From Gammaproteobacteria bacterium (GTDB lineage: Bacteria > Pseudomonadota > Gammaproteobacteria > VBWC01), in contig VBWC01000003.1 in assembly GCA_006218035.1 (NCBI GenBank), positions 117,251 to 181,250 on the forward strand: a DNA stretch of 64,000 nt. Direction: 5' to 3'. This document shows, in pieces, positions 12,627 to 64,000 of the stretch. Under the pieces are notes generated by a model. That model saw only the letters and a program-made list of their open reading frames with translations. It did not search any database and was not told the origin of the DNA. The position numbers and the translations under genes were made by a program. How positions within the stretch are numbered: the first letter of the stretch is position 1; each line of letters begins with the position of its first letter.

Positions 12627-12648
12627 TCTATATTGGTTCGATACGACA

Positions 12649-29541: not shown

Positions 29542-29556
29542 GGCATGCTTCTTGCT
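29542..29556 (+). promoter_or_regulatory. sigma-54 type promoter upstream of fleS-fleR
   Basis: CGGCAT-N5-TTGCT has the GG and GC elements 10 nt apart. It lies about 50 nt upstream of the fleS ATG. Confidence 0.55.
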
Positions 29557-29602
29557 CGGTCACTGTGCAGTCAATGTACTACACAGTGGAGCAGGGATCC
29601 GC

Positions 29603-39064: not shown

Positions 39065-39091
39065 TAAACAATAAAATATCCGTGCCGATAA
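39065..39091 (+). promoter_or_regulatory. sigma-28 (FliA) type promoter upstream of the MCP gene
   Basis: TAAA-N15-GCCGATAA is an exact match in the -10 box. The -10 box ends 10 nt before the ATG at 39101. Confidence 0.65.
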
Positions 39092-39100
39092 GGGCATGAC

Positions 39101-40840
39101 ATGAAGTTAGTCCTGCTCAACCCTTTTACACGAATGCACATCCGCAGCCGGTTGCTGCTGGGTTTTGGCACGCTGATCCTGATTATCTGCGGCGGCTACG
39201 CGATCAGTTCGACCAATCTTATATACCTGCAACGCGAACAGGCGAAGATTCCCGAGGCGATGCACCAGGTTGAGGTCGCAGTGGGCGATGTCCTCACGTT
39301 GCGGCACGCACAGCAACTGGTCCTTAAGTGGGGCTACCCGGTGCTCCAGGAGCGAACCACACTGGAAAAATATTTTGTTACCGACGGCGTCGCTGCGCAA
39401 CAGGGTATATATGAGGAGTTTCAGCGACTGGGTGATGAAATCGATAACATTGCCACCCAATTGAGCAGCGTCATATCGGACAAGCAAGCCGCGACAAAAA
39501 TTGCCGAGATACAGAGTCAGCAACAGAAAATTCATCTGGCTGCGATCGAGGTTATTGCCGCGTTCGATGGCGAGGGCGAATTTGGCGACGAGGCGCAGTC
39601 GCAGTTGGCAGCGTTTGTTCAGCAGATTGATGTGCTTCTGTCATTGATACTGGGCTTCGAACAATTAGTGAACGAAAAGGGCGAGCTTGCCACCGATATT
39701 CAGAGCGACCGATTTCAGGCGGTCGCCAGGAACATCGAAGGATCAAAACAGGTTATTGCAGCGTCGCAATACATCAGCCTGTTCCTTGTCCTGGTTGGGT
39801 TGGCGTTCGCCATGTCGGTCAGTGTGATGATCTACCGATCGATCGTTCTTCCTTTACGGTATTGCACGATGCTCTCGCGGCGCATCGCCGCGTTCGATCT
39901 GAGACTGGACAACAGCCGTGACGCGCCGACCGGGCCCGATGCATTGTCGCGGCTCGCGGCCGATTTGAACTCGATGCGCTCGTCATTGCGTGACCTGATT
40001 GAAAAGATCGTTGCGGCGGCCAATCACCTCAGTGTTTCGGGTGATGAGTTCCAGCGTTCCTCGGTGCGGGTTCGGGAAGTGGCTGGCAGCCAGGCGGCGA
40101 GGTCCGGCGACGCGTCGGCCGCAACAGGGCAGATGTTGGCGACGGTCCAGGAGATTGCCCGGGCAGCAGGCGAAACAGCCGAATTTTCGCATCAGGTTGA
40201 TGAGAAGGTTCGGTACAGCGCCGATGTCGAGGCCAAGGTGACACTTGAAGAGATGGAGCACGCGATTCAGGCGGTTGATGCGAACAACGAAGAGATCCGG
40301 TTTGTTTCCGGTTCGGCAAAAGAGGTTGGTGAGATCGTCGGTTTCATCAGCGGTGTTGCCGAGCAGACCAACCTCCTCGCGTTGAACGCCGCCATTGAGG
40401 CAGCCCGGGCCGGTGAGCATGGCCGCGGATTTGCGGTAGTTGCTGACGAGGTGCGTAATCTGGCGAAGCGAACGAAGGAGGCCACGGCCGAGATAAAGGA
40501 AAAGGTCGAGCGCATGCAGGCCGAGGTCCGTAAGGCCTCGACCAGAATGGACAGCAGCCGTGAGTCTGTGCGGCGCGGTTCGGTTGCGGTCAACCGGATT
40601 GTCGATCTGTTGCGGGAAATCGAGACCATGAACACCAAGTTGCGCGTGCTCAACGAGAATATTGCGGCGTCCACGGAAGAGCAAACGAATACATCGGAAG
40701 AGATCGCCAGGAGTGTCGCGGGCGTGAATACCAGCTGCGGCGACCTTACGAAACATGCGGAAGATATCCATGCTCAGGCCAAAGGTGTCTATGACATGAC
40801 GGAAACCATCAGCAAAGAAATAATGAAATTCAAGATTTAG
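39101..40840 (+). CDS. methyl-accepting chemotaxis protein
   Basis: It has two transmembrane segments flanking a ~180-aa periplasmic region, then HAMP. The highly conserved MCP signalling domain [38 protein letters not shown] is present. Confidence 0.9.
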
Positions 40841-44842: not shown

Positions 44843-45337
44843 ATGAGATCCAGGCTATCGAGCGGCGCTGTGCAAGGACCGTGGAGCGGGCTTCGTCGCC
44901 TGACGCCTGTTGCGCGGCGGGTCTTCGTATCTATCGCTGCGTTGGTGCCCCCGGCTTGGGCCGCCGGCGCCGAGACAGCGTCCACCGCCGCCAACGTCGC
45001 GCCGTTTGACACAGGTAACGTGCTGCGTATCGTCATCGGTCTGATGGTTGTCGTGATCGCGATCGTCGCCACCGCCTGGGGACTGCGGCGTTGGGGTAAT
45101 TTTCGCGCGTCCGCCCAAGGGGAACTCCAGATCATCGGCGGTTTGTCGATGGGGCCCCGCGAGCGCCTGGTGCTGGTTCGGGTGGGCGACGAGCAGCTGC
45201 TGCTCGGCGTTGCCCCGGGCCGGATACAGACACTGCACAAGCTTGAACGGCCGGTACCGGTCAACAGCGAGACAGCGCGGGGAGAAAGTTTCGCCGAGCG
45301 TATGCGCACCGCGGTAAAACAGAGGGCCGGTTTATGA
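44843..45337 (+). CDS. fliO: flagellar biosynthesis protein FliO
   Basis: It has a single transmembrane segment ([21 protein letters not shown]) and lies between fliN and fliP. The family sequence is poorly conserved. Confidence 0.65.
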
Positions 45338-46074
45338 AGCGCCTGATCGTGGGTCTGGTGCTGGTATTTCTGCTTGTCCCGGACACGTTTGCGCAGCCTG
45401 GCATGACGGCGCTGTCGGTGACGACCGGTCCCGACGGTCAGCAAACCTACTCGTTGAGTATCCAGGTGCTGATCTTCATGACCCTGCTGACGCTGCTGCC
45501 CGCCGGGCTGATGATGATGACGTCGTTTACACGCATCATTATCGTGCTGGCGATATTGCGGCAGGCGTTGGGCACGCAGCAGACGCCGACCAGTCAGACA
45601 TTGATCGGCCTCGCGCTGTTCCTGAGCTTTTTCATCATGGCGCCGGTATTCGACCGCGTGTATCAGGACGCGGCCCGGCCGTATCTGAACGAGGAAATAA
45701 CCATTCAGGACGCGCTGCAGCGGGCGAGCGATCCGTTCAGGAAGTTTATGCTGGCCCAGACCCGCTCCAGTGATCTCGAACTGTTCGCCGGCATCGCCGG
45801 GCAAACGGATATCGAGTCGCCCGACGGCGTGCCGTTTTCAATGTTGGTGCCGTCGTTCGTCACCAGCGAGCTCAAGACGGCGTTTCAGATCGGCTTTCTG
45901 ATCTTCATTCCGTTCCTGGTGATCGATCTGGTCGTCGCGAGCGCGCTGATGTCGATGGGTATGATGATGTTATCGCCGCTGATCATATCGCTGCCGTTCA
46001 AGATCATGTTGTTCGTGCTCGTCGATGGCTGGGCGCTGATTATCGGCACGCTGGCGTCGAGTTTTTATGTGTAG
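45334..46074 (+). CDS. fliP: flagellar export apparatus protein FliP
   Basis: The signal peptide is followed by the FliP motifs ([43 protein letters not shown]). Confidence 0.93.
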
Positions 46075-47186: not shown

Positions 47187-48314
47187 GTGGCCGAGAATCC
47201 CGCCCAGGAAAAGACCGAAGAACCCACGGCTAAACGCGTCAAGGAATCGCGTGACAAGGGCCAGATTGCGCGATCGCGCGATCTGAACACGATGACGGTT
47301 CTAGTGGTGGCGGCAGGAGGCTTCTTTTTGCTGGGCGCCGGCATGATCGACGGCTTGCTGGCGATCATGCGCGATCACTTCGTGCTTGCCCGCAGCGAGG
47401 TTTTCGATGAAAGCGCGATGCTCAGCGGCACCTATCGGGCGATAGCGGACGGTATTCTGGCACTGGTGCCATTTCTGTTATTGATGCTGTTCGCGGCGCT
47501 GGTTGCGCCGCTCGCGCTCGGCGGCTGGTCGTTCAGTGTGCAATCGCTGGCCTTCAAATCGGAAAAGCTCAATCCCATCGAGGGCATGAAGAAGATATTC
47601 TCGGTCCGCGGACTCGTCGAGATGCTCAAGGCACTGGCCAAGTTCGCGTTGCTGTCCGGGGCGCTGGTGCTGATGTTGTGGCATGAGGCCGGCGACTTTC
47701 TGAAGCTTGGCAGTATGTCCGTGGAAGCGGGAATCAGCAGCATCGGTAATCTGCTCGCCTGGTCGTTGCTGTTGTTGAGCGCGACGCTGATCTTCGTTGT
47801 GGCGATCGACGTGCCTTTTCAGCTATGGGATCACGCCAAGCAGATGCGCATGACGCGCCAGGAAATCAAGGACGAACACAAGGAAACGGAAGGCAGTCCC
47901 GAGGTGCGGGGCCGGGTGCGAACGTTGCAACGGGAAATCGCACGCCGGCGCATGATGGCCGAGGTACCGAGGGCCGATGTGGTGGTGACCAACCCGAGTC
48001 ACTATGCCGTGGCCTTGCGTTACGACCAGAAGACGATGCGCGCGCCGGTCGTGGTCGCCTCGGGCGGCGATTTGATTGCCGCGCAGATCCGCCATGTCGC
48101 GATTCAGTACAACATACCCATCCTGTCGGCGCCGCCGTTGGCGCGCGCGCTGTTCTTCAGCACCGAGATCAATCACCCGATTCCGACCGGACTCTACCTG
48201 GCCGTGGCGCAGGTGCTGGCCTACGTATTCCAGCTGCGCGCCAGGCCGCGCCGAAACCGGCGGCCGGTGGTGATGGATGACCTGCCGATACCCGACGATT
48301 TGCGGCACGATTGA
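47187..48314 (+). CDS. flhB: flagellar export switch protein FlhB
   Basis: It starts at a GTG codon, has four transmembrane segments, and carries the C-terminal autocleavage motif NPSHY (an NPTH variant) in VVVTNPSHYAVAL. Confidence 0.92.
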   Translation: MAENPAQEKTEEPTAKRVKESRDKGQIARSRDLNTMTVLVVAAGGFFLLGAGMIDGLLAIMRDHFVLARSEVFDESAMLSGTYRAIADGILALVPFLLLMLFAALVAPLALGGWSFSVQSLAFKSEKLNPIEGMKKIFSVRGLVEMLKALAKFALLSGALVLMLWHEAGDFLKLGSMSVEAGISSIGNLLAWSLLLLSATLIFVVAIDVPFQLWDHAKQMRMTRQEIKDEHKETEGSPEVRGRVRTLQREIARRRMMAEVPRADVVVTNPSHYAVALRYDQKTMRAPVVVASGGDLIAAQIRHVAIQYNIPILSAPPLARALFFSTEINHPIPTGLYLAVAQVLAYVFQLRARPRRNRRPVVMDDLPIPDDLRHD

Positions 48315-51818: not shown

Positions 51819-52692
51819 TCTCAAGCAGGATCAGGCGACCGGGCTGCGTACCATGACGCGACCGAAACCGGTCCGGGTAATCGCCGTTACCAGCGGCAAG
51901 GGTGGTGTCGGCAAGACCAATGTTTCGGTAAATCTGGCGGTGTCGATGGCCGATGCCGGCAAGCGCGTGCTGCTGTTCGACGCCGACCTCGGGTTGGCCA
52001 ACGTCGACGTGATGCTGGGGCTGCGTGCGCAGTACACGCTGCAGCACGTCATCAACGGCGATCGTACACTCGAAGAAATCCTGATCGAAGGGCCGTCCGG
52101 ATTGAAGATCGTCCCGGCGGCGTCAGGCGTCGCCGGCATGGCCGACCTGTCGCCTGCACAGCATGCCGGCCTGATACATGCGTTCGGCGAGCTGACCTTT
52201 CCGGTTGACACGCTGTTGATCGACACGGCAGCAGGAATTTCCGATGGCGTGATCAGCCTGATCAAGGCCGCACAGGACGTGCTGGTCGTGGTCTGCGATG
52301 AGCCGGCATCAATCACCGACGCCTATGCGATGATCAAACTGTTGAATCGCGAGCACGGCATCCACCGTTTCCGCGTGGTCGCGAACATGGCGTTAAGTGC
52401 CAGGGAAGGGCAGGACCTGTTTAAAAAACTGGTCAGAGTGACGGACCGCTTTCTGGACGTCACGCTCGACTTCATGGGCACTGTTCCCTACGACGAGTAT
52501 CTGCGCAAGGCAATACAACGGCAGCGCGCCGTCGTCGATGCCTACCCGCGCAGTAAATCGGCGGTAGCCTTCAAGAACCTGGCACAGAAAACGGACAGCT
52601 GGCCTGCGCCGACTGTCGCCGGGGGGCGTCTCGAATTCTTTGTTGAGAGACTGATACAGGCAAGTCAATTAGCCGAGGCATCTGGACTATGA
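51805..52692 (+). CDS. fleN: MinD-like ATPase FleN/FlhG (flagellar number regulator)
   Basis: The deviant Walker A box is VTSGKGGVGKTNVSVNLA. It lies between flhF and fliA. Confidence 0.9.
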   Translation: MPASSLKQDQATGLRTMTRPKPVRVIAVTSGKGGVGKTNVSVNLAVSMADAGKRVLLFDADLGLANVDVMLGLRAQYTLQHVINGDRTLEEILIEGPSGLKIVPAASGVAGMADLSPAQHAGLIHAFGELTFPVDTLLIDTAAGISDGVISLIKAAQDVLVVVCDEPASITDAYAMIKLLNREHGIHRFRVVANMALSAREGQDLFKKLVRVTDRFLDVTLDFMGTVPYDEYLRKAIQRQRAVVDAYPRSKSAVAFKNLAQKTDSWPAPTVAGGRLEFFVERLIQASQLAEASGL

Positions 52693-53426
52693 ACGGAGCA
52701 GCGATGTACGTGTCTATGAAAACCGATGACAACATGGATGATGATCTCGTAACCAGACACGCGCCGCTGGTGAAGCGGATTGCGTACCATCTGATCAGCC
52801 GCTTGCCACCCAATGTTCAGGCGGACGATCTGATTCAGGCCGGTATGATCGGCCTGCTCGAAGCGTCGCGAAATTATGACGCGACACAGGGCGCGAGCTT
52901 CGAGACCTATGCCGGTATCCGCATACGCGGCGCGATGCTCGACGAGATTCGCAAGGGCGACTGGGTGCCGCGCTCGGTACACCGCCGCGCACGCGAGATG
53001 GCCGAGGCGGTGCGTAAGGTCGAAAACCTTACCGGGCGTGACGCACGTGATCACGAGATCGCCGAGGAGATGGGACTGGAACTGGCCAGCTATCACAAGA
53101 TACTCCAGGACGTCAGCGGCCACCGCGTGCTGAGTTTCGAGGACCTGGGGATCGATGATGGCGGCATCGGCGACGCTTTCCCCGACGGGGCGACGAATCC
53201 CTATGAGGGTCTGGAAAGGGCCGACTTCAAGAAGGCACTGGCGGATGCAATCTCCGGCCTGCCGGAACGGGAGCGCCTCGTGCTGACCTTGTATTACGAC
53301 GAAGAAATGAATTTGCGGGAGATCGGCGCCGTTATAGGTGTCAGCGAATCGCGCATCAGCCAGATTCACAGCCAGGCGCTGATTCGCCTGCAGGCGCGCC
53401 TGAAGAACTGGGCGTTACGAGACTAA
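52689..53426 (+). CDS. fliA: RNA polymerase sigma-28 factor FliA
   Basis: Sigma-70 regions 2, 3 and 4 are present (LVKRIAYHLISR...DLIQAGMIGLLEA ... LREIGAVIGVSESRISQIHSQAL). Confidence 0.92.
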   Translation: MNGAAMYVSMKTDDNMDDDLVTRHAPLVKRIAYHLISRLPPNVQADDLIQAGMIGLLEASRNYDATQGASFETYAGIRIRGAMLDEIRKGDWVPRSVHRRAREMAEAVRKVENLTGRDARDHEIAEEMGLELASYHKILQDVSGHRVLSFEDLGIDDGGIGDAFPDGATNPYEGLERADFKKALADAISGLPERERLVLTLYYDEEMNLREIGAVIGVSESRISQIHSQALIRLQARLKNWALRD

Positions 53427-53450: not shown

Positions 53451-53843
53451 ATGGCTCTCGATAAGGATATCAAGATCTTGATCGTCGATGACTTTGCGAC
53501 GATGCGCCGAATAATAAAAAATCTGTTGAGGGACCTCGGTTTCGAGAACACCGACGAGGCGGAGGACGGCGCCAAGGCGCTGCCGAAGCTACAGAACGGC
53601 GACTACAAGTTCGTGATCACCGACTGGAACATGCCGGCGATGCCCGGCATCGAGCTGCTGAAGGCGATTCGTGCCGACCGGCGGTTGCAGGCGCTGCCGG
53701 TGCTGATGGTGACGGCGGAACAGCGCCGCGAACAGATCGTCGAGGCCGCGGAGGCCGGCGTCAACGGCTACATCGTCAAGCCATTCACGGCAGCCATGCT
53801 CAAGGAAAAAATTGAACGGATATTCGAACGGCTGGAACACTGA
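53451..53843 (+). CDS. cheY: chemotaxis response regulator CheY
   Basis: The 130-aa product has the CheY hallmarks DDFATMRR...DWNMPAMPG...MVTA...GYIVKPFTA. Confidence 0.93.
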
Positions 53844-53982
53844 GCGCCGCCGGTATCCGGAGGGTTGTGGAAATAGTGATGGTGACCGGTAATGAGTGCG
53901 AAGCGGATGAGATTCGAATAACGGCAGCCCGCGCGGTGCGGTTGCCGGTGTTGCCGGAACGCTGGAGAAGAAGGTTGACTTT

Positions 53983-55974
53983 ATGGCATCGAACTTCGAT
54001 GGGGAAATAGTTCGCGACTTTATCGTTGAGGGCGGCGAAATTCTGGAAAAACTCGGGGAGGAGCTCGTCACGCTGGACGGGAGCCCGCGCGATATTGAGC
54101 TGCTGAACAGCATATTTCGCGGTTTTCATACCATCAAGGGCGGCGCCAGTTTTCTGAGTATCGAGCCGGTCGTCGCACTCTGTCACGGAGCCGAAGATCT
54201 GTTCAGCCTGTACCGTTCCGGCGAACGGAGCGTGGATTCCCGCGATATTGACATCGTGCTGCGCACTGTCGACGAACTTGGCGCGGCCTTTGCTGAATTG
54301 CGAAACAATGCCGCGCCGAAACCGGCCGATCCCGCCCTGCTGTTGGACCTCCGTCAAAGTGTCTCCCGGCTTGGTGGCAACGCCTCGTCGGGAACGGCCG
54401 CCGCCGCAACATCCGGTGCGGTCGAACGGACGGACCCGCCGGCCGGTGGGCAGGATCAATTCACGGCTGCGGTCGCGGCGGGCGATGCCACTGGTACACC
54501 GTCTGGCGGGCAAGGGCTTCATGCGCCGCCAGGTCACCAGGCAGGCGCGGATACGCTGGCGGGCGCCGGGTTACTCGCGCCGCCGCAATTTTCCGACGCG
54601 GAATTTGAAGCACTGCTGGATCGCCTGCATGGTAAAGGCAGCGCGAGTACAGCACCTGTCGTGGCAACGCCCGCGGGGCCAGGCAAAGCGACCGACAGAA
54701 ACCGCAACGAACCTTCGGCCAGGGCGGCCGAGACGCCAATCCATGCAGTGCCGGTACCGGAGCCGACGGATACCGGCGAGAAGCCGCTACGCCAGCCGGA
54801 AGCGACGTTGCGTATTGAAACACGGCGCCTCGATGCGATCATGAATCTCGTCGGCGAACTGGTGCTGGCGCGCAATCGTTTGCTTTCGCTTGAATCGCTG
54901 GCGCGTGACGAGCGTACCAGCAAGGCGCTCAACGATCTCGACCTGGTGATCTCGGATCTTCAGGTGGCGGTGATGAAGTCGCGCATGCAGCCCATTCAGA
55001 AGATATTCGCGCGTTTTCCGCGGGTGGTGCGCGATCTCGCGCGCAGCCTTGCCAAGGAAGTCACGCTGGAGATCAGCGGTGAGGAAACCGATCTGGAAAA
55101 GAACATGGTCGAGTCGCTCGCCGATCCGCTGGTGCATCTGGTGCGTAACGCGATAGACCACGGCATCGAAACCCCCGGCGAGCGCGAAGCCGCCGGCAAG
55201 AGCCGCCACGGGACGGTGAACCTTTCGGCCCATCAGGAAGGCGATCGCGTCGTTGTTACCATTGCTGACGATGGCGCCGGTATCGACGCCGCGCGCCTGC
55301 GTGACGCGGCGGTACGCAAGAAGATGCTCGATCAGATGGCCGCCGACCGTCTTTCGGACGAAGCGTGCTTCGAGTTGATGTTCCTGCCGGGCCTGACCAC
55401 GCGTCAGCAGGCGTCGGACATTTCAGGTCGGGGCGTCGGGATGGACGTGGTGCGGACGAAGATCGAACAGCTCGGCGGCACGATTGCAGTGAGCTCGGTC
55501 CCGGGTTCCGGTACGACCATTGAGATCCGGCTGCCGCTGACGCTGGCGATACTGCCGACATTGATGATCGGACTGGAGCACCAGGTCTTCGCGTTGCCGT
55601 TGTCGTGCGTGGTTGAAATCGTCCATATCAATCTGGCGGAGTCGCGACTCGTGGACGGGCAGCCGGTCATCATCATTCGCGGCAGGCCGCTGCCGCTGTT
55701 TCATCTCGGGGAGTGGCTGCTGCGCAATCCCGCCGGGCGTTCGGCGTCCGTCGGTCAGGTCGTTGTCGTTCGCATCGGACCGCGCCACGTTGCTTTTGCA
55801 GTCGATGACCTGATCGGTCAGGAGGAAGTCGTCATCAAGCCGTTGGGCGCGCTCGTTCATGGCACCAAGGGTCTGGCCGGCGCGACCATCACGGGGGACG
55901 GGCGGGTGGCGCTGGTTCTCGATATACCGGAGCTGCTGTCAAAACACATGATGAAAATGGCGGCGGGGGCATGA
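53983..55974 (+). CDS. cheA: chemotaxis histidine kinase CheA
   Basis: It has an HPt domain (FRGFHTIKGGASFL), an Ala/Pro-rich linker, a dimerisation domain, an HATPase domain (DDGAGID...GRGVGMDVV) and a C-terminal CheW-like domain. Confidence 0.92.
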   Translation: MASNFDGEIVRDFIVEGGEILEKLGEELVTLDGSPRDIELLNSIFRGFHTIKGGASFLSIEPVVALCHGAEDLFSLYRSGERSVDSRDIDIVLRTVDELGAAFAELRNNAAPKPADPALLLDLRQSVSRLGGNASSGTAAAATSGAVERTDPPAGGQDQFTAAVAAGDATGTPSGGQGLHAPPGHQAGADTLAGAGLLAPPQFSDAEFEALLDRLHGKGSASTAPVVATPAGPGKATDRNRNEPSARAAETPIHAVPVPEPTDTGEKPLRQPEATLRIETRRLDAIMNLVGELVLARNRLLSLESLARDERTSKALNDLDLVISDLQVAVMKSRMQPIQKIFARFPRVVRDLARSLAKEVTLEISGEETDLEKNMVESLADPLVHLVRNAIDHGIETPGEREAAGKSRHGTVNLSAHQEGDRVVVTIADDGAGIDAARLRDAAVRKKMLDQMAADRLSDEACFELMFLPGLTTRQQASDISGRGVGMDVVRTKIEQLGGTIAVSSVPGSGTTIEIRLPLTLAILPTLMIGLEHQVFALPLSCVVEIVHINLAESRLVDGQPVIIIRGRPLPLFHLGEWLLRNPAGRSASVGQVVVVRIGPRHVAFAVDDLIGQEEVVIKPLGALVHGTKGLAGATITGDGRVALVLDIPELLSKHMMKMAAGA

Positions 55975-57820: not shown

Positions 57821-59542
57821 ATGGCGCGCAAGAAAAAACACGAAGAACACGAGAACCTCGAACGTTGGCTGGTTTCTTACGCCGACTTCATTACCCTGTT
57901 GTTCGCGTTCTTCGTCGTCATGTACTCGGTCTCGTCGGTCAATCAGGGTAAGTACCGCGTGTTGTCAGACGCACTGGTGGCGTCGTTTCGTTCGCCTCTT
58001 AAAAGCCTCGACCCAATCCAAATCGGCGATACCGCGAAATCGATTTATAACCCTCAATACGCGTTTATGAAGGAGCCGTCTGTCTTTAATATTCCCAAGC
58101 TGCCGCAGCGGCATGTGCCGGGCGCGGAAACGAAGGGCCCGCGGTCGCAAGGCGACGGTGGGACCCGCGAGCGGGCGGAGGGCAGGGGTATCGAGGGCCG
58201 TGCAGTGGAACAAGGCACGACCGAAGGCCAGCATCGTGGCGTTGTGTCCGCCGAGGGGGACGTCGAAAATGCCTTTCAACAACGCCTGCCGCCGATACCG
58301 GAAACCGGTCTGCCGCCGGAGGCGTTGCAGCCCGGCACGATCGTCAGCAAGGGTACCAGGATAGGCGGATTCGGCGGTATCGAGGCCGAGTTACCCGCGC
58401 CGTTGCCGGATACCGACAAAACCGCAAAAGAGTTGAAGGTGGGAACCCTCGTCAGTGGCGGCACCGAGATCGGCGGCTTCGGCGGGGTGGATGTCGAACT
58501 GCCCGCGCCGCTGCGGGAAGTGAAGGCGCATCGCGATGTCCGCGCGATCTCGCAGGAGTTTACCGAAAAACTGGAGGGACTCATCGCCGGCGACCTTGTC
58601 GCCATACGCAGTGACGAAAAGGCGCTGACAGTAGAGGTGGAAATCAAGGACAACGTATTGTTCAAAAGCGGTAGCGCCAATGTCGAAGCGACCGCGTTGC
58701 CGGTGCTCAACGATCTTGCGGGGGTATTGAAACAGTTTCCGTATCCGGTTCGTGTCGAAGGATTTACCGATAACAATCCGATCAGCACCAGCGCTTTTCC
58801 GTCCAACTGGGAATTGTCCGCGGTGCGGGCGGCAAGCGTGGTCAAGGCGTTGAGCACCGCCGGTATCGAACCGCCGCGGCTGTCTGCAGTTGGCTACGGT
58901 GAGTACCGTCCGGTCGCCGCCAACAACACCGTCGAGGGCCGCCAGCAGAATCGCCGCGTCATCCTGGTGATCGAGGCGAACCCGTCTGCGCAGCCGATAT
59001 TGCAGGCGTCGCTGCCGACCCGGCCACGCAGCGTGACGTTCGACAAGGAGGCAGTGGCATTGCCGCCGCCCGCGGTACCCGTTACCCGTGCCATACCTGC
59101 ACCGGTAACGCCGGTGCCGGACAAGCCGGTGGCACCGGCCAGTCCGGTTGAGGCGAAACCGGTGGTCCCGGTGCCGCTGCCGGCCACGCCGGTTGAACAG
59201 CCGGTGACTGTCGACGAAAAAAATGTCGTAGTACCCGCCGCGATCAAACCTGAACCAGCGGTACCGGCAAAACAAATCGCGCAGCCAGCAATCGTGACGC
59301 CGGAAATAACTCCGGAGCCGGTGGTTGCGCCGGAACCGCTGCCGCCACCGAAGACGGCTGAATCTGCGGGCGCCATTTTGCAACCGTTTCGGGCGATCGA
59401 CATGCCGAACCCGATCACGATGCCGATTGCACCGCCGATCAAGTTGCCGGTCGCGCCCGAGCGGAAGCAGTCGTCCGAACTTACGCCGAATGCGCTCGGG
59501 GTCAAGTCGATCTGGCCCGGTGGATCCAAAGAGAAGCCATAG
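57821..59542 (+). CDS. motB: flagellar stator protein MotB/PomB family, unusually long (573 aa) with repeat insert and Pro-rich C-terminal extension
   Basis: The N-terminal plug/transmembrane region (WLVSYADFITLLFAFFVVMYSVSS) matches MotB. The OmpA-like peptidoglycan-binding domain (VRVEGFTDNNP...AVGYGEYRP...QNRRV) is present. An internal tandem repeat and a ~190-aa Pro/Val/Ala-rich tail are additional. Confidence 0.82.
   Translation: MARKKKHEEHENLERWLVSYADFITLLFAFFVVMYSVSSVNQGKYRVLSDALVASFRSPLKSLDPIQIGDTAKSIYNPQYAFMKEPSVFNIPKLPQRHVPGAETKGPRSQGDGGTRERAEGRGIEGRAVEQGTTEGQHRGVVSAEGDVENAFQQRLPPIPETGLPPEALQPGTIVSKGTRIGGFGGIEAELPAPLPDTDKTAKELKVGTLVSGGTEIGGFGGVDVELPAPLREVKAHRDVRAISQEFTEKLEGLIAGDLVAIRSDEKALTVEVEIKDNVLFKSGSANVEATALPVLNDLAGVLKQFPYPVRVEGFTDNNPISTSAFPSNWELSAVRAASVVKALSTAGIEPPRLSAVGYGEYRPVAANNTVEGRQQNRRVILVIEANPSAQPILQASLPTRPRSVTFDKEAVALPPPAVPVTRAIPAPVTPVPDKPVAPASPVEAKPVVPVPLPATPVEQPVTVDEKNVVVPAAIKPEPAVPAKQIAQPAIVTPEITPEPVVAPEPLPPPKTAESAGAILQPFRAIDMPNPITMPIAPPIKLPVAPERKQSSELTPNALGVKSIWPGGSKEKP
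58340..58518 (+). repeat. imperfect tandem duplication of a ~71-nt unit (period ~108 nt) inside motB
   Basis: The units are 58340-58410 and 58448-58518. They encode TIVSKGTRIGGFGGIEAELPAPLPD and TLVSGGTEIGGFGGVDVELPAPLRE. Confidence 0.7.
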
Positions 59543-59719: not shown

Positions 59720-60178
59720 ATGGAATCAGTCAGACAGGAAACGAAGCGGGCGGATACGGTCACGCAATGGGTGACCTTCAGGCTGGCCGGCGAAACCTAC
59801 GGCATCGAAGTCATGTCGGTTCAGGAGGTTTTGCGGGTTCCGGAGATTACGCCGGTACCGGGCGTACCGGATCACGTACTGGGTATTATCAATCTGCGCG
59901 GCAAGGTTGTTACGGTGCTCGATATGCGCCAGCGTTTCGGTTTGCCGTCGACCGGGCTCGACGACGCGTCGCGCATCATTGTCATCGAAATCGCCGATGA
60001 CGTGGTCGGTGTCCTGGTGGATCGTGTGGCCGAGGTGGTCTACCTGAACGAGGCCGAGGTGGAAAGCGCCCCGGATGTCGGTAATCGGAAGAGTTCGCGA
60101 TTTATTCGCGGGGTGCATGTCAGCGACGACCAAATGCTGATTCTGGTCGATTTCACCGGTCTCATCGACGAAGCGTAG
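59720..60178 (+). CDS. cheW: chemotaxis coupling protein CheW
   Basis: The CheW domain is present (QWVTFRLAGETYGIEVMSVQEVLRVPEITPVPGVPDHVLGIINLRGKVVTVLDMRQRFGL). The start was trimmed to the ATG at 59720. Confidence 0.9.
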   Translation: MESVRQETKRADTVTQWVTFRLAGETYGIEVMSVQEVLRVPEITPVPGVPDHVLGIINLRGKVVTVLDMRQRFGLPSTGLDDASRIIVIEIADDVVGVLVDRVAEVVYLNEAEVESAPDVGNRKSSRFIRGVHVSDDQMLILVDFTGLIDEA

Positions 60179-60232
60179 CGCGCGTCGCACACTTCGTGAT
60201 GAATCGTCGCCGCATGTCTCAGGAAACCGTCC

Positions 60233-60409
60233 ATGGTAAAACTTCCCGAGATTCCTCCCGTCGCACCGGCCTGGCCTAGACCAAAGTCCGACCGGACCGG
60301 TCGATCCGGGCGAACCGAGAAAAAGCAACGCGACGACGAACGTGAACGCCGGCGCAAGGATGATCCGGACGAAGAGGGCGGGAAGGATCATGTCGACGAA
60401 TACGCTTAG
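60233..60409 (+). CDS. possible small (58 aa) highly charged protein between cheW and the DUF2802 gene
   Basis: The ORF is below the 60-aa cutoff of the supplied track. Its product, MVKLPEIPPVAPAWPRPKSDRTGRSGRTEKKQRDDERERRRKDDPDEEGGKDHVDEYA, fills an otherwise unexplained gap. No ribosome-binding site could be confirmed. Confidence 0.25.
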   Translation: MVKLPEIPPVAPAWPRPKSDRTGRSGRTEKKQRDDERERRRKDDPDEEGGKDHVDEYA

Positions 60410-60424
60410 AACATGGAGTGATAT

Positions 60425-60793
60425 ATGCATCTTCTGAACATACTCTTTTTTCTTGTGGTGACCGGGCTGATTTACGAAAGCCACCGGCGCTTCAGCCGGG
60501 CGCTATCACAGCGCGACGAGGCCATCATGCGTTTGCAGCGCGATATCGCGGCGTTAACCACCGCCGGTGCCGGGATCAGCGGGCATCTGATGCGTATCGA
60601 ACGCCATCTCGCCGAATTCGGCGAGCGCCAGTATCAGCTTGAAACATCGACGCGGGTCGAACAGTCCTACAGCCAGGCGATTCGCCTGGCCAGCGAGGGT
60701 GCCGGTACCGATCAGCTAATCGAGGACTGCGGTCTGGTGCGGGATGAGGCGGAGTTGCTGCGCACCTTCTATCAGCAACGCAAGGCGTCCTGA
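60425..60793 (+). CDS. DUF2802-family protein (flagellar-cluster associated)
   Basis: It has an N-terminal transmembrane segment plus a coiled coil. Proteins of this organisation commonly follow cheW in polar-flagellum clusters. The family call is from memory of the pattern, not from a search. Confidence 0.55.
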   Translation: MHLLNILFFLVVTGLIYESHRRFSRALSQRDEAIMRLQRDIAALTTAGAGISGHLMRIERHLAEFGERQYQLETSTRVEQSYSQAIRLASEGAGTDQLIEDCGLVRDEAELLRTFYQQRKAS

Positions 60794-60803
60794 CGATACC
60801 TGC

Positions 60804-62684
60804 TTACGCCCCGTCGTGCGCATCACCGCGCACGTCTATCGTGCGGCGCGGCTCGCCAACAAAATACCCCTGTGCATAGTCAATACCCAGGTCGGTCAGC
60901 ATGTCGAGCACCGCCTGATTTTCCACGAACTCGGCAACGGTTTTTTTGCCGAGGGAGTGGGCGACGTCAATAATGGATTTGACCAGCGACTGATCCATGG
61001 CGCTGTTGGGAAGATTGGTGATGAAGCTGCCGTCGATCTTGAGAAAATCCACCGGAAAGTTTTTGATGTAGGCGAACGAGTTGAAGCCGGAACCGAAGTC
61101 GTCGAGTGCGAACTGGCAACCGAGTTCGCGCAGGCGGATAATCATTTGGCGCGTCTGTTCCGCGTTCGCGATCGCTGCGGTTTCGGTGATTTCAAATATC
61201 AGGCGGGTCGCATCAATACCGCGCTCGGTAATCTGATCCCGAATCAGCGCAAACAGGGTCGGATCCTGGAAGGAATGACCGGACAGGTTGATATTCAGTG
61301 AAACGTGCGCCAGCTCGGGCGGGAGCGTCGCCAGCATCCTGATCGCACTGAGCACTACCCAGCGATCTATGTCATGGATCAGGCCCATGCTTTCCGCTAC
61401 CGGGATAAAATTCACCGGGCTGACCAGCTGGTTGTCGGCGTCGATCAACCGTATCAGTACCTCGTAATGCTGAAAGCGGCCGTTCGCAACATTGAGTACC
61501 GGCTGGTACACCAGGCAAAAACGCTGTTCCGCGAGCGCCGCTCGAATGATTGGCACCCAGTGCGCAGCGCTGCGCAGGATGTCCATTTCCGCGTCTTCCT
61601 TGCTGTAGAGATGAACGAGATTCCGCCCGCGGGACTTGGCGGCGAAACAGGCCCGGTTAGCGCGTGCGAGTATGGTGCTGGCGGACAGCCCGTCGTCGGG
61701 ATGAATGAGCACGACGCCGATGCTCGCGCCGATATGATACGTGCGCTTATTGACGTCGACGCGATAGTTGTCCATCAAGCGATGCAACGATTCGGCGGTG
61801 CCCAGCACGGCCTTGTCATCCGCGCCTTCGATCACGACGGCGAACTCGTCTGCGCTGACGCGACAAACGAGATGGGCGGCGCCGAAGTGACGGCGGAGTA
61901 ATCGGGAGATTGCTATTAATACCTCATCACCCACGGTATAGCCTTCCAGATCGTTGATGACCTTGAACTGGTCGAGATCAAGGTACAGCAAGCCGCTGGC
62001 GACGCCGCTATGTTCCGCTAGATGTACGAGGCGATCCATGGCCTTCTCGAGCTGGCGGCGGTTACAGAGTCCGGTGAGATCGTCGTGCGTGACGAGATGG
62101 TTCAGGCGCTCCTCAACGATGCGTCGTTCCGCAAGTTCAATGACGAGCTCGTCTTCCCGGCTCTTGCGCAGGTCTCGTTCCCGCTTGAGCGAAAGCGCGG
62201 ATATCACTCGCGGGATCAGTTCCACGCGACGTATCGGTTTAAACATGATGTCGGTTGCGCCGGCGGTAAAGCTGGTGTTGGCGATTTCGTCCTGCCACGT
62301 CGCGTTTGCAGTGATCATGATGACCGGGATATCCGCCCAGTCGATTTGGGAGCGTATCCGGCCGCAAACCTCGTATCCGTCCATATTCGGCATCATGATG
62401 TCGAGCAACACGAGATTGATGCGACACTGATTGTTCGCGGTGTTTTGCGCCAGCAGATTCAGGGCCAGGGCACCGCTGCTCGCGGCGACCGTATTCATGA
62501 ATCCGCTCTTGGCGAGCATGGCGCGTGTCAGGTCGATGTTGTCGCTGTTGTCATCAACGACCAGGATGCGCATGCGGCGCAATTCGTCGAGAAAGTTGGT
62601 ATGCGGGTCGCGGCCGTTCGCGTCGCCGCCGCGGTCCGTCGGGGACGCAGGCCCGTTGTTCTGTTTACGACCCGTGTTTTCCAT
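60804..62684 (-). CDS. response-regulator receiver / degenerate GGDEF (SADEF) / EAL phosphodiesterase-domain protein
   Basis: The REC domain carries ILVVDD...LVLLDIMMPNMDG. The GGDEF-like domain has SADEF in place of GGDEF. The EAL domain carries EVLIRL, the NINLS, EITE, DDFGSGFNS, KIDGSF and QGYF motifs, consistent with a catalytically competent c-di-GMP phosphodiesterase. Confidence 0.85.
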   Translation of the reverse strand: MENTGRKQNNGPASPTDRGGDANGRDPHTNFLDELRRMRILVVDDNSDNIDLTRAMLAKSGFMNTVAASSGALALNLLAQNTANNQCRINLVLLDIMMPNMDGYEVCGRIRSQIDWADIPVIMITANATWQDEIANTSFTAGATDIMFKPIRRVELIPRVISALSLKRERDLRKSREDELVIELAERRIVEERLNHLVTHDDLTGLCNRRQLEKAMDRLVHLAEHSGVASGLLYLDLDQFKVINDLEGYTVGDEVLIAISRLLRRHFGAAHLVCRVSADEFAVVIEGADDKAVLGTAESLHRLMDNYRVDVNKRTYHIGASIGVVLIHPDDGLSASTILARANRACFAAKSRGRNLVHLYSKEDAEMDILRSAAHWVPIIRAALAEQRFCLVYQPVLNVANGRFQHYEVLIRLIDADNQLVSPVNFIPVAESMGLIHDIDRWVVLSAIRMLATLPPELAHVSLNINLSGHSFQDPTLFALIRDQITERGIDATRLIFEITETAAIANAEQTRQMIIRLRELGCQFALDDFGSGFNSFAYIKNFPVDFLKIDGSFITNLPNSAMDQSLVKSIIDVAHSLGKKTVAEFVENQAVLDMLTDLGIDYAQGYFVGEPRRTIDVRGDAHDGA

Positions 62685-62811
62685 CTATGCTTTCAGTATC
62701 GGCTGGCGTGGCGCCACGAGTGGCCATGAATAGCGATTCACCTGGATCAGCAATGATCCGAACCCCAATTCGAAAAACGGAAGACAATCAGTGCCTGGTC
62801 AATCAGCCCAT

Positions 62812-62840
62812 TTATCGGCGCTGCCCCACCATTCTTTATA
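62812..62840 (-). promoter_or_regulatory. sigma-28 (FliA) type promoter driving the REC-GGDEF-EAL gene
   Basis: On the minus strand it reads TAAAG-N15-GCCGATAA, an exact consensus match. The -10 box ends about 128 nt upstream of the start codon at 62684. Confidence 0.65.
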
Positions 62841-63162
62841 GCGTGAATTCAACTCGTAAGTGCAACTCTACGCCTTTGGCAGGAGGCCAGGCCTAATGAC
62901 GTCGCGCCGGTCGGCCGCTCTCGCTCAGGTGGCGGTTTTCAGGCGCGCGACTTTCGGCGCGGGCCCGGTGCGCGCGCTTCGGGACGACGTTTCCGGGATA
63001 GGCCGGATTCTTTTCTGGCAGCTTGTTGAAAAACTACTGCGCTTGCCATGACGGCGTTGCAAAAAGGCTCAAACGACATACAGTACCTCCTGTACATAAC
63101 CCCGCTTTTTCGCCTTTTTGCGCCTTGTCCCGGTGGCACTCGCTACGTTTTTCAACATGCTG

Positions 63163-63462
63163 CTAGGTGGCTTTACGCGTGGCGGCGTGTTCGGCCGCCT
63201 TGCCCGATACGATATAGGCGAATGCGATAACTTCGGCGATGACAAAATAGAGCTGTTCCGGGATTTCATCGCCCAGCTCGAGTTGCGACAGCAGGAACGC
63301 GAGGCCGGGGTCTTCGTGTAACGGAATGTTATGCGCCCGGGCGATCTCGATGATCTGATCGGCCAGTTCGTCGAGCCCTGTTGCCGTCACCCGGGGCGCG
63401 TTGCTGCCGTCGTATTTCAATGCGACGGCTTTGCGCGGCCCCTGGTTCTCATCGCTGTTCAT
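63163..63462 (-). CDS. FlhB C-terminal-domain paralog (FlhX/YlqH-like small protein)
   Basis: The 99-aa product aligns with the post-NPTH part of the FlhB encoded in this same window: AVALKYDGSNAPRVTATGLDELADQIIEIARAHNIPLHEDPGLAFLL compared with AVALRYDQKTMRAPVVVASGGDLIAAQIRHVAIQYNIPILSAPPLARAL. Confidence 0.8.
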   Translation of the reverse strand: MNSDENQGPRKAVALKYDGSNAPRVTATGLDELADQIIEIARAHNIPLHEDPGLAFLLSQLELGDEIPEQLYFVIAEVIAFAYIVSGKAAEHAATRKAT

Positions 63463-64000
63463 GCCTCGAGATTCCTCAATAACTCCGGCGTGCGGTGGCC
63501 GGGCACGGGCGGGGGCTTGCCGGTCTGGCAGCGCATTGCTCCGACGGTCAGGCCGGCGCTGGCGAGTTTGCCTTGCAATTCGGCCAGGTGTCGCTCGAAC
63601 AGATCCGCGGTGCGGGGTTGTTCTGCCCAGAACATCGTCGAGATATGACGGTTTTGCAGTGTCAGGCGGGCATGAACGGGCCCGAGATGTTCCAGATCAA
63701 ATGCGATGTGAATGGTCCATTGCCGCGCGGCCTCATCCTGTGAGCCGGTCGCATCCCGTGTGATACGCAGCTGTATGACGTCCACCTGATTCCCGTGGCG
63801 TAGCGGCAGTTCAAACGTGAGATACGGCTGGGCCTGGTCCTGGGCGGGTAGCGCGGCAAGCTGGCTGATCTGTAAACGTGCGAGCACGCCATCCGCCTGC
63901 TGCAGCAGCACACCGAGCAATTCATCGACGGTTGAGAACATTGCCGGGGCAGCCCGTGCCTGGGCCTGCATCACGGACCCACGCAGCGGTGGCGCCGCGT
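63459..64000 (-). CDS. FliK C-terminal-domain-like protein (partial; 5' end beyond window)
   Basis: Its C-terminal region resembles the FliK C-terminal domain in this window: LEHLGPVHARLTLQNRHISTMFWAEQPRTADLFERHLAELQGKLASAGLTV compared with PELGPVRVHISIDQGQVSVTFTSHHAQVRDALQSAMANLGDLLAESGLNL. It overlaps the downstream FlhB-like gene by 4 nt. The reading frame is open to the window edge. Confidence 0.65.
   Translation of the reverse strand, partial: AAPPLRGSVMQAQARAAPAMFSTVDELLGVLLQQADGVLARLQISQLAALPAQDQAQPYLTFELPLRHGNQVDVIQLRITRDATGSQDEAARQWTIHIAFDLEHLGPVHARLTLQNRHISTMFWAEQPRTADLFERHLAELQGKLASAGLTVGAMRCQTGKPPPVPGHRTPELLRNLEA

What the first reader, a model, noticed from the sequence alone, without database searches (positions are those of the whole stretch)
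60804..62840. c-di-GMP phosphodiesterase candidate (REC-SADEF-EAL) placed under an exact-consensus sigma-28 promoter
On the minus strand, TAAAG-N15-GCCGATAA sits about 128 nt upstream of the start. This wires a response-regulator-controlled EAL enzyme into the late (FliA) flagellar class, functionally analogous to the FliA-dependent PdeH/YhjH of E. coli but with a different architecture. The GGDEF motif is degenerate (SADEF) while the EAL residues (EVL, N, EITE, DDFGSG, K, E, Q) look intact, which predicts PDE-only activity gated by phosphorylation. The gene also converges on the DUF2802 gene with only a 10-bp gap.
Basis: partly seen in the sequence, partly recalled or inferred. Interest (0 to 1): 0.55.

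Follow-up and report, generated by a model that had tools for sequence, protein, structure and literature searches.

The report
Flagellar sigma-28-driven c-di-GMP phosphodiesterase gene
A gene at the edge of a flagellar gene cluster encodes a signal-receiver enzyme that most likely destroys the "stay put" messenger c-di-GMP, and it carries a conserved late-flagellar (sigma-28) promoter, so swimming and messenger removal are probably switched on together; the logic is already known from E. coli and Pseudomonas, so this is a solid but fairly ordinary new example.

Summary
Window 60804-62684 (-) encodes a 626-aa REC-GGDEF-EAL protein. An exact TAAA-N15-GCCGATAA site lies at 62812-62838 (-), 127 nt upstream of the ATG.

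There are three exact sites in the window against 0.01 expected. The other two precede fliS and an MCP gene, and fliA is in the same window.

The promoter is conserved. 17 of 34 syntenic orthologous loci have a site with at most 1 mismatch, mostly about 100-112 nt upstream of the start. None of 37 non-syntenic relatives and none of 72 generic GGDEF-EAL genes has one. An unbiased k-mer count finds GCCGATA and CTAAAG as the most shared upstream words.

All nine EAL catalytic residues are present in 119-120 of 120 homologues. The GGDEF motif is S[SA]DE[YF] in 113 of 120 and the second glycine is never present, yet the GTP- and metal-binding residues are invariant. The REC phosphorylation residues are intact.

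Most likely this is a FliA-class, phosphodiesterase-only response regulator. Phospho-gating, GTP sensing and the kinase are inferred only. It resembles FliA-driven PdeH and BifA, and REC-GGDEF-EAL PdeR/RavR. I call it a new member of a known kind, of moderate-to-low interest.

The parts
62834..62838 (-). Sigma-28 -35 element TAAAG. The extended box TAAAGAAT is 62831-62838.
   Evidence: Exact pattern match and sequence read. CTAAAG is shared by 11 of 30 dereplicated orthologous upstream regions, more than in any of 100 shuffles.
62812..62819 (-). Sigma-28 -10 element GCCGATAA.
   Evidence: Exact match. GCCGAT is in 14 of 30 and GCCGATA in 12 of 30 orthologous upstream regions, the most shared 6- and 7-mers. 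17 of 34 syntenic loci have a full site with at most 1 mismatch.
62685..62811 (-). Leader between the -10 box and the ATG (127 nt). The predicted 5' UTR is about 120 nt.
   Evidence: Sequence. Leader length is similar in most orthologues with a site (about 100-112 nt). No Rfam hit. Folding z-score is +0.54. No consensus structure.
60804..62684 (-). CDS of the REC-GGDEF(degenerate)-EAL response regulator, 626 aa.
   Evidence: Conservation of [LF][DE]xLRxM just before M38 supports a start upstream of M38.
62208..62567 (-). Receiver (REC) domain, residues 40-159. The phospho-acceptor D95 codon is 62400-62402.
   Evidence: Pfam PF00072, 81 bits. D44, D45, D95, T125 and K149 are present; D95 is present in 116 of 120 homologues. 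The closest solved REC is PleD D1.
62091..62207 (-). Conserved helical linker, residues 160-198 (LKRERDLRK...ELAERRIVEERL).
   Evidence: Most conserved family-specific stretch (82% mean column identity). Role as a signalling helix is inferred.
61620..62090 (-). Degenerate GGDEF domain, residues 199-355. The SADEF motif is at 61842-61856.
   Evidence: Pfam PF00990, 117 bits. SADEF aligns to GGDEF of RbdA and MorA. The family motif is S[SA]DE[YF] in 113 of 120 and the second Gly is absent in all 120. D236, N244, D253, K350 and R354 are invariant.
60849..61547 (-). EAL phosphodiesterase domain, residues 380-612.
   Evidence: Pfam PF00563, 252 bits. E408, R412, N466, E498, E501, D528, D529, K549, E585 and Q605 are conserved in 119-120 of 120 homologues.
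52689..53426 (+). fliA, the sigma-28 factor expected to read the promoter.
   Evidence: Pfam sigma-70 regions r2, r3 and r4. NCBIfam NF005413 FliA scores 311.9 bits (cut-off 201) and TIGR02479 scores 272 bits.
60425..60793 (+). Convergent neighbour: a DUF2802 (FipA-like) gene, last gene of the che/mot operon.
   Evidence: Pfam PF10975, 61 bits. FipA is the DUF2802 partner of FlhF (PMC11620751). Synteny is conserved.
63163..63462 (-). Upstream same-strand neighbour: an FlhB C-terminal-like gene, preceded by a FliK-like gene (63459 to beyond the window).
   Evidence: Pfam Bac_export_2 and Flg_hook. TIGR00789 flhB_rel. Conserved upstream of orthologues.

Best explanation
The gene encodes a response-regulator-type c-di-GMP phosphodiesterase. 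It is transcribed from its own FliA (sigma-28) promoter as a late flagellar gene.

Shown by computation:
1. A REC-GGDEF-EAL architecture.
2. A complete EAL catalytic set.
3. A GGDEF motif degraded to S[SA]DE[YF] across the whole family.
4. An exact sigma-28 consensus site in the intergenic region, in the sense orientation, in a cluster that also encodes FliA.
5. Conservation of that site and of the gene order (fliK-like, flhB-like, PDE, then convergent fipA-cheW-motB) across diverged uncultured gammaproteobacteria.

Inferred:
- When FliA becomes active after the hook-basal body is completed, the enzyme is made together with flagellin and chemoreceptors. It lowers c-di-GMP so that c-di-GMP brakes on motility are released. 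The cluster itself encodes candidate c-di-GMP sensors, FleQ and an atypical PilZ protein.
- The degenerate GGDEF domain no longer makes c-di-GMP. It keeps its nucleotide-binding residues, so it probably acts as a regulatory (GTP-binding or docking) module, as in RbdA, RmcA and PdeA.
- Phosphorylation of D95 is transmitted through the conserved helical linker and probably tunes EAL activity. The kinase is unknown; CheA and a FleS-like kinase are the only ones encoded in the cluster.
For: Promoter:
- The site is an exact match. The window has 3 exact sites against 0.01 expected; the other two precede fliS and an MCP gene.
- A near-consensus site precedes the flagellin gene.
- fliA is present.
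- No sigma-70-like promoter and no terminator were found on the minus strand between the flhB-like gene and the PDE gene.

Conservation:
- 17 of 34 syntenic loci have a site with at most 1 mismatch, and 24 of 34 with at most 2, mostly about 100-112 nt upstream. L163 and L164 also have one.
- Only 18 sites with at most 1 mismatch occur in 445 kb of these loci scanned on both strands, nearly all of them these same sites.
- 0 of 37 non-syntenic relatives and 0 of 72 generic GGDEF-EAL genes have such a site.
- In a de novo k-mer count, GCCGAT(A) and CTAAAG exceed every shuffle.

Enzyme:
- Pfam domains.
- RbdA is the best solved relative, E 6e-87.
- Residue statistics over 120 homologues.

Synteny.

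Precedents:
- pdeH is a FliA class 3 gene (PMC5635695).
- bifA has sigma-28 and sigma-70 promoters (PMC5300878).
- PdeR is a REC/GGDEF/EAL phosphodiesterase triggered by its kinase (PMC6637768).
- GTP binding to the GGDEF domain rearranges the EAL domain in RmcA and RbdA (PMC7825114).
Against: - There are no expression data. The transcription start and FliA dependence are unmeasured.
- About a quarter to a half of syntenic orthologues lack a recognisable site. Some of these upstream regions were truncated or the start was mis-assigned.
- Read-through from the upstream fliK-like/flhB-like genes cannot be excluded, because no terminator was found.
- Phospho-gating is not assured. VieA and BsmR (REC-EAL) are phosphorylation-independent (PMC5498567). 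The REC resembles PleD D1 rather than CheY. Some family members have lost the DD pocket or D95.
- AGDEF and SGDEF cyclases are active (PMC3974145), so a degenerate motif alone does not prove loss of cyclase activity. Here, though, the second Gly is also missing.
Confidence: 0.7

Rival explanations
1. The phosphodiesterase is constitutive. It is controlled only by how much is made (FliA dosage). The REC domain would be structural or a dimerisation module and not a phosphorylation switch.
For: VieA and BsmR are REC-EAL enzymes whose activity is independent of phosphorylation, and BsmR acts through its expression level (PMC5498567). PdeH works purely by abundance (PMC5635695). No dedicated kinase gene sits next to the gene in any locus. 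Some homologues have lost the DD pocket or D95. The aromatic switch position is Ile146.
Against: In the window protein and most homologues all five phosphorylation residues are kept: D95 in 116 of 120, DD in 103-104 of 120, K149 in 106 of 120. The REC-GGDEF linker is the most conserved family-specific segment. PdeR, which has the same domain set, is triggered by its kinase (PMC6637768).
Confidence: 0.3
2. The sigma-28 match is not the working promoter. The gene would be transcribed by read-through from the upstream fliK-like/flhB-like genes or from an unrecognised promoter.
For: No intrinsic terminator was detected on the minus strand between 63163 and 62838. A subclade (L101, L102, L103, L123) carries a sigma-70-like TTGACT-N17-TATAAA closer to the start. 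Some orthologues have no detectable sigma-28 site.
Against: The two boxes are the most conserved upstream words, while the spacers and leaders have diverged. Sites are absent from 109 control upstream regions. The 478-nt intergenic gap and the other exact sites ahead of fliS and the MCP gene fit a working FliA regulon.
Confidence: 0.1
3. The protein is a catalytically inactive c-di-GMP receptor or scaffold, like FimX or LapD, and not an enzyme.
For: FimX and LapD are among the solved GGDEF-EAL relatives. The degenerate GGDEF resembles receptor-type proteins.
Against: All EAL metal-binding and catalytic residues are conserved in 119-120 of 120 homologues, with the same spacing as RocR. The best matches are active phosphodiesterases: RbdA, MorA and DosP.
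Confidence: 0.06
4. The protein is bifunctional. The SADEF domain would still make c-di-GMP, with REC phosphorylation switching between synthesis and breakdown.
For: GTP- and metal-binding residues of the GGDEF domain are invariant. AGDEF and SGDEF cyclases are active (PMC3974145). RbdA was reported to be both a cyclase and a GTP-enhanced phosphodiesterase (PMC7825114).
Against: Both glycines are replaced here, and the second is never Gly in 120 homologues. The active exceptions keep the second Gly. The I-site RxxD is absent (G268...H271; family G-x-x-D/G).
Confidence: 0.05

Closest known systems
PdeH (YhjH) of E. coli and Salmonella
   Same: A c-di-GMP phosphodiesterase expressed as a FliA-dependent late flagellar gene. 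This couples low c-di-GMP to motility (PMC5635695).
   Different: PdeH is a stand-alone EAL domain with no sensor, and it is encoded outside the flagellar clusters. The protein here has REC and degenerate GGDEF domains and sits at the edge of the flagellar/che cluster. It is an analogue and not a family member.
BifA of Pseudomonas putida and P. aeruginosa
   Same: A GGDEF-EAL phosphodiesterase partly controlled by FliA, with a sigma-28 promoter next to a sigma-70 promoter (PMC5300878, PMC4866697, PMC5026340). A subclade of the orthologues here also carries a sigma-70-like element.
   Different: BifA has no REC domain. The sigma-28 site of bifA is not conserved even between two Pseudomonas species (PMC5300878). 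Here the site is conserved across proteins down to about 46% identical.
PdeR / RavR of Xanthomonas (REC-GGDEF-EAL response regulators)
   Same: The same three domains. PdeR has phosphodiesterase activity triggered by its cognate kinase PdeK and is polarly localised (PMC6637768).
   Different: PdeR and RavR are encoded next to their kinases, and no sigma-28 promoter is reported for them. Orthology was not tested because no sequence was available to me. No kinase gene is adjacent here.
RbdA (PA0861) of P. aeruginosa, PDB 5xgb
   Same: The best solved relative over GGDEF-EAL (E 6e-87, residues 186-612). It is a GTP-enhanced phosphodiesterase (PMC7825114).
   Different: RbdA has PAS input, an intact GGDEF motif and an RxxD site. 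The protein here has REC input, SADEF and no RxxD.
Pch/DipA of P. aeruginosa and PdeB of Shewanella putrefaciens
   Same: Phosphodiesterases tied functionally to the flagellated pole or the chemotaxis machinery (PMC3861689). In PdeB the GGDEF domain is used as a docking switch (PMC9061725).
   Different: These have other input domains, and they are linked by protein-protein contact and not by a flagellar promoter. Any polar localisation here is speculation.

Membership tests
Active EAL-domain c-di-GMP phosphodiesterase | EAL domain hit above the curated threshold | tested here: met
   PF00563 scores 251.9 bits against a cut-off of 31.3, covering residues 380-612.
Active EAL-domain c-di-GMP phosphodiesterase | Catalytic and metal-binding residues: E(A/V)LxR, N, ExxE, DD, K, E, Q | tested here: met
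   E408, R412, N466, E498, E501, D528, D529, K549, E585 and Q605 are conserved in 119-120 of 120 homologues. The spacing equals RocR E175...Q372 through the ungapped 233-residue offset of the 3sy8 match. The RocR residue numbers are from my own knowledge.
Active EAL-domain c-di-GMP phosphodiesterase | Hydrolysis of c-di-GMP to pGpG | not testable with these tools
   Needs an enzyme assay.
Diguanylate cyclase (active GGDEF) | GG[DE]EF active-site motif | tested here: not met
   The motif is SADEF. The family has S[SA]DE[YF] in 113 of 120, and the second Gly is absent in all 120.
Diguanylate cyclase (active GGDEF) | RxxD inhibitory site five residues upstream of the motif | tested here: not met
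   G268-A-A-H271 in the window. In the family, position 268 is G in 83 of 120 and R in 15 of 120.
Diguanylate cyclase (active GGDEF) | GTP- and Mg-binding residues (PleD D327, N335, D344, K442, R446 equivalents) | tested here: met
   D236, N244, D253, K350 and R354 are present in 120 of 120. The mapping to PleD numbers is from my own knowledge. This is compatible with a regulatory nucleotide-binding role.
Two-component receiver domain | DD pocket, phospho-acceptor Asp, Thr/Ser and Lys | tested here: met
   D44, D45, D95, T125 and K149. PF00072 scores 81 bits.
Two-component receiver domain | Phosphotransfer from a cognate kinase | not testable with these tools
   No adjacent kinase gene. CheA (53983-55974) and a FleS-like kinase (29552-30829) are in the cluster. 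The REC is PleD-like and 32% identical to the local CheY.
FliA (sigma-28) dependent promoter | Match to TAAA-N15-GCCGATAA, in an intergenic region, in the sense orientation | tested here: met
   Exact match at 62812-62838 (-), 127 nt upstream of the ATG, inside a 478-nt intergenic region.
FliA (sigma-28) dependent promoter | Cognate sigma factor encoded in the genome | tested here: met
   fliA is at 52689-53426. NF005413 scores 311.9 bits against a cut-off of 201.
FliA (sigma-28) dependent promoter | Boxes conserved in orthologues beyond the background rate | tested here: met
   17 of 34 syntenic loci against 0 of 109 controls with at most 1 mismatch. The k-mer test agrees.
FliA (sigma-28) dependent promoter | Transcription start downstream of the -10 box, lost without FliA | not testable with these tools
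   Needs 5' RACE or RNA-seq in a fliA mutant. The organism is an uncultured MAG (GCA_009773435.1).
PdeH/YhjH family | Stand-alone EAL domain protein | tested here: not met
   Three-domain, 626-aa protein. It is a functional analogue only.
Curated named PDE families in NCBIfam (DibA, PdeR/YciR, DosP, PvrR, LapD and others) | Score above the equivalog cut-off | tested here: not met
   The best hits are 323 bits against a cut-off of 1135, and 298 against 980. None passes.
PdeR/RavR-type REC-GGDEF-EAL regulators | Sequence orthology to Xanthomonas PdeR/RavR | not tested
Only the domain composition is known from PMC6637768.

The most novel reading that the evidence does not exclude
The REC domain may be a phosphoryl acceptor of the cluster's own chemotaxis kinase CheA, or of the FleS-like kinase. 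Moment-to-moment chemotactic or flagellar-assembly signalling would then be converted directly into c-di-GMP hydrolysis by an enzyme made only once the flagellum is complete. That would be a hard-wired version of the CheA-Pch link seen in P. aeruginosa. It could also serve as a phosphate sink in a cluster that has no cheZ between cheY and cheA.
Probability: 0.15. Interest if true: 0.65.

Novelty: new member of a known kind. Interest (0 to 1): 0.3.

Why it matters
This is a clean case, supported by comparative data, in which a c-di-GMP-degrading enzyme is part of the flagellar regulon in uncultured sulfur-cycle-type gammaproteobacteria. It extends the rule 'late flagellar sigma factor switches on a PDE' from enterobacteria and pseudomonads to a different enzyme architecture that also has a phosphorylation input.

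The family signature is S[SA]DE[YF] together with intact nucleotide-binding residues and a conserved REC-GGDEF linker. That gives a defined set of proteins for testing how a dead cyclase domain and a receiver domain jointly control an EAL domain.

It does not change current concepts.

Tried and rejected
1. A riboswitch or other known RNA in the 127-nt leader. There was no Rfam hit at E up to 1 over 60000-64000. The leader folds no better than shuffles, z = +0.54. RNAalifold finds no consensus pairs in 8 orthologous leaders.

2. CsrA/RsmA control through GGA motifs in the leaders. There are 24 GGA in 14 leaders against 26.2 expected from shuffles, so I rejected this.

3. A CheY-like identity for the REC domain, as a hint that CheA is the donor. 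The REC is closest to PleD D1 and is only 32% identical to the local CheY, so this is not informative.

4. A genome-contig scan with the full-length alignment. Only L001-L003 were relatives. Those loci were reused as negative controls. A linker-only alignment gave the useful metagenome loci.

5. Lysobacteraceae and Pseudoxanthomonas hits (L009, L053) as possible RavR-like proteins. They are PAS-GGDEF-EAL proteins with an intact GGDEF motif and are not relatives of this family.

6. The 10-bp convergent gap as a special feature. Orthologues range from a 23-nt overlap to a 47-nt gap. So it is simply a tight convergent junction without a terminator.
Full report
**What is there**

The minus-strand ORF 60804-62684 starts with ATG and encodes 626 aa. 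Pfam finds three domains: a receiver domain (residues 40-159), a GGDEF domain (199-355) and an EAL domain (380-612), all far above threshold. The best solved relative is the GGDEF-EAL part of P. aeruginosa RbdA/PA0861 (5xgb, E 6e-87). MorA, FimX and DosP follow.

In these alignments the query's SADEF (residues 277-281, window 61842-61856) lies exactly under the GGDEF motif of RbdA and MorA. The RocR match (query 383-612 to RocR 150-379) gives an offset of 233. That puts these residues on RocR E175, N233, E265/E268, D295/D296, K316, E352 and Q372. The RocR numbering is from my own knowledge of Rao et al. 2008.

The receiver domain has D44, D45, D95, T125 and K149.

**The promoter motif**

TAAA-N15-GCCGATAA matches exactly at 62812-62838 on the minus strand. 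The window has three exact matches, against 0.01 expected from dinucleotide-preserving shuffles.

Read in full, the site is TAAAGAAT-GGTGGGGCAGC-GCCGATAA. This is the TAAAGTTT-N11-GCCGATAA register of the enterobacterial consensus (the consensus is from my own knowledge). There are 127 nt between the -10 box and the ATG.

The other two exact sites precede fliS (18463-18489) and a methyl-accepting chemotaxis protein gene (39065-39091). A one-mismatch site with a 16-nt spacer precedes the flagellin gene (14176-14203).

fliA itself is at 52689-53426. NCBIfam NF005413 scores 311.9 bits against a cut-off of 201.

A simple scan found no sigma-70-like promoter and no intrinsic terminator on the minus strand between the upstream flhB-like gene and this gene.

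**Context**

The window is one large polar-flagellum supercluster of the Pseudomonas/Vibrio type. Its gene order is:
- flgD to flgL
- sugar-nucleotide genes
- flagellin, fliD, fliS
- TPR/GT41 proteins
- an atypical PilZ protein
- fleQ, a FleS-like kinase and a FleR-like regulator
- fliF to fliK
- an MCP gene and a porin gene
- fliL to fliR, flhB, flhA, flhF, flhG
- fliA, cheY, cheA, cheB, motA, motB, cheW
- a DUF2802 gene

The DUF2802 gene matches the description of FipA, the FlhF partner encoded at the end of this operon in other gammaproteobacteria (PMC11620751). It converges on the PDE gene with a 10-bp gap. Upstream, on the same strand as the PDE gene, lie a FliK-like gene and a small FlhB C-terminal-like gene.

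The source is the MAG GCA_009773435.1, contig WSNP01000001.1, annotated as a gammaproteobacterium.

**Relatives and synteny**

A search of the large protein collection returned 2,789 proteins with E up to 1e-20 among the 8,000 candidates scored. The best 120 share the same three domains, are about 570-675 aa long and are 50-72% identical. All named ones come from uncultured Gammaproteobacteria, Thiotrichales or Chromatiaceae MAGs.

I used an alignment of the family-specific REC-GGDEF linker to fetch 80 metagenome loci. tblastn with the window's neighbouring proteins shows the same gene order in essentially every locus whose protein is at least about 45% identical. That order is fliK-like, flhB-like, PDE, then convergent DUF2802, cheW and motB. 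Precomputed Pfam annotation of further contigs confirms it independently.

A more distant group (about 41-43% identical, with no N-terminal extension) is not in this context.

**Is the promoter conserved?**

| Set of upstream regions | Site with at most 1 mismatch |
|---|---|
| 34 non-redundant syntenic orthologues | 17 (24 with at most 2 mismatches) |
| 37 non-syntenic REC-GGDEF-EAL relatives | 0 |
| 72 generic GGDEF-EAL genes | 0 |

- Two further genome contigs, L163 and L164, also have a site. Two that lack the flagellar neighbours upstream, L165 and L166, do not.
- Over all 445 kb of these loci, scanned on both strands, there are only 18 such sites, nearly all of them the ones upstream of this gene.
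- To avoid circularity, I counted k-mers in 220 nt upstream of 30 dereplicated orthologues. The most widely shared words are GCCGAT (14 of 30), CCGATA (12), GCCGATA (12) and CTAAAG (11). Each exceeds the maximum seen in 100 shuffles.
- The spacers and leaders differ freely between loci. The two boxes therefore appear to be under selection and are not merely inherited.

**Family-level residue statistics (120 homologues)**

- The GGDEF position reads SSDEY in 81, SADEY in 22, SADEF in 7, GSDEF in 5 and SSDEF in 3. The second glycine is never present.
- The I-site arginine is replaced: G268 in 83 of 120.
- D236, N244, D253, D279, E280, K350 and R354 are invariant. By my own knowledge these are the PleD-type Mg- and GTP-contacting residues.
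- All nine EAL catalytic residues plus R412 are present in 119-120 of 120.
- The phospho-acceptor D95 is present in 116 of 120, the DD pocket in 103-104, T125 in 93 and K149 in 106.
- A few lineages (for example P0098, P0103, P0108, P0117) have lost parts of the phosphorylation site.

**Most likely mechanism**

The evidence supports three things:
- an EAL phosphodiesterase with an intact active site;
- a cyclase domain that has lost its catalytic glycines but kept its nucleotide pocket;
- a FliA-type promoter that is conserved.

From these I infer the following:
- The enzyme is produced with the late flagellar genes and lowers c-di-GMP when the cell commits to swimming. PdeH does this in E. 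coli (PMC5635695) and BifA does it in P. putida (PMC5300878, PMC5026340, PMC4866697).
- The degenerate GGDEF domain acts as a regulatory nucleotide-binding or docking module. GTP binding to the GGDEF domain rearranges the EAL domain in RmcA and RbdA (PMC7825114). In Shewanella PdeB the GGDEF domain docks to HubP (PMC9061725).
- Phosphorylation of D95 modulates activity through the strongly conserved helical linker. PdeR, with the same domain set, is triggered by its kinase (PMC6637768).

The last step is the weakest. VieA and BsmR are REC-EAL enzymes that work independently of phosphorylation (PMC5498567). The kinase is unknown. The REC is PleD-like and not CheY-like. The only kinases in the cluster are CheA and a FleS-like protein.

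Possible local targets of the c-di-GMP drop are FleQ and the atypical PilZ protein encoded in the same cluster. This is also inference.

**Things that led nowhere**

- The leader has no Rfam match, no unusual stability and no conserved structure.
- GGA motifs are not enriched in the leaders.
- The 10-bp convergent gap is one value in a range from a 23-nt overlap to a 47-nt gap among orthologues. There is no terminator there. So the 3' ends of the two transcription units probably overlap, but this was not pursued.

**Comparison and novelty**

The regulatory logic (FliA drives a phosphodiesterase) and the enzyme type (a REC-GGDEF-EAL phosphodiesterase) are both known. What is new is their combination in a conserved, cluster-embedded and so far uncharacterised family. 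This family reaches no curated NCBIfam equivalog threshold and is known only from uncultured gammaproteobacteria.

I class it as a new member of a known kind and set interest at 0.3.

The most novel reading not excluded is direct phosphotransfer from the cluster's CheA (or its FleS-like kinase) to this enzyme. I put its probability at about 0.15.

Noticed in passing
window 53843-53983: No cheZ lies between cheY (53451-53843) and cheA (53983-55974); the gap is only 140 nt. Pseudomonas and Vibrio clusters of this layout carry cheZ here (my own knowledge). Whether cheZ or another CheY-P phosphatase is elsewhere in the genome is unknown.
   Followed up: no
window 27152-27829: A 225-aa protein with an atypical PilZ domain (PF16823 tPilZ, E 3e-13) is encoded immediately upstream of fleQ (27946-29481). 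So the cluster carries its own candidate c-di-GMP receptors.
   Followed up: no
window 46040-46067 (-): A TAAA-N16-GCCGATAA site with both boxes exact lies antisense inside fliP (45334-46074). It could be a chance match or an antisense FliA promoter.
   Followed up: no
window 39065-39101: The exact sigma-28 site upstream of the MCP gene ends only 9 nt before the listed ATG at 39101. The real start codon of the MCP is therefore probably further downstream.
   Followed up: no
window 63163-64000 (-): There is a second FliK-like gene (Flg_hook domain; 488 aa in the source contig) followed by a 99-aa FlhB C-terminal-like gene (TIGR00789 flhB_rel). These are in addition to the canonical fliK (37822-39000) and flhB (47187-48314). 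The pair is conserved upstream of the PDE gene in orthologous loci.
   Followed up: partly
L101:838-890, L102/L103:4524-4576, L123:4515-4567: A subclade of orthologues carries TTATTGAC[TA]ATAATATCAATAAGTTATATAAA about 50 nt before the start. It reads as a near-consensus sigma-70 promoter (TTGACT-N17-TATAAA) and also contains a 7-bp inverted repeat (TTATTGA/TCAATAA). This suggests dual promoters or an operator, as for bifA.
   Followed up: partly
window 57821-59542: MotB is unusually long (573 aa). It has a roughly 190-residue Pro/Ala/Val-rich C-terminal tail after the OmpA domain, and a repeat-like insertion between the plug and the OmpA domain.
   Followed up: no
window 19440-27189: Three large TPR proteins, two with GT41 (O-GlcNAc-transferase-like) domains, sit between fliS and fleQ. 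dTDP-sugar genes lie at 10681-14084, upstream of the flagellin gene. Together these suggest flagellin glycosylation.
   Followed up: no
window 60794-60803 and orthologous loci: The PDE and fipA genes converge with gaps from -23 to +47 nt in 21 orthologous loci, and no terminator was detected. The 3' ends of the FliA-driven PDE transcript and of the che/fipA operon transcript probably overlap.
   Followed up: partly
L165 (GCA_016712635.1) 3233-3501: The homologue P0117 has a degenerate REC acidic pocket and lacks the fliK-like/flhB-like genes upstream. It also lacks any sigma-28-like site, although DUF2802, motB, motA and fliA are still downstream.
   Followed up: partly
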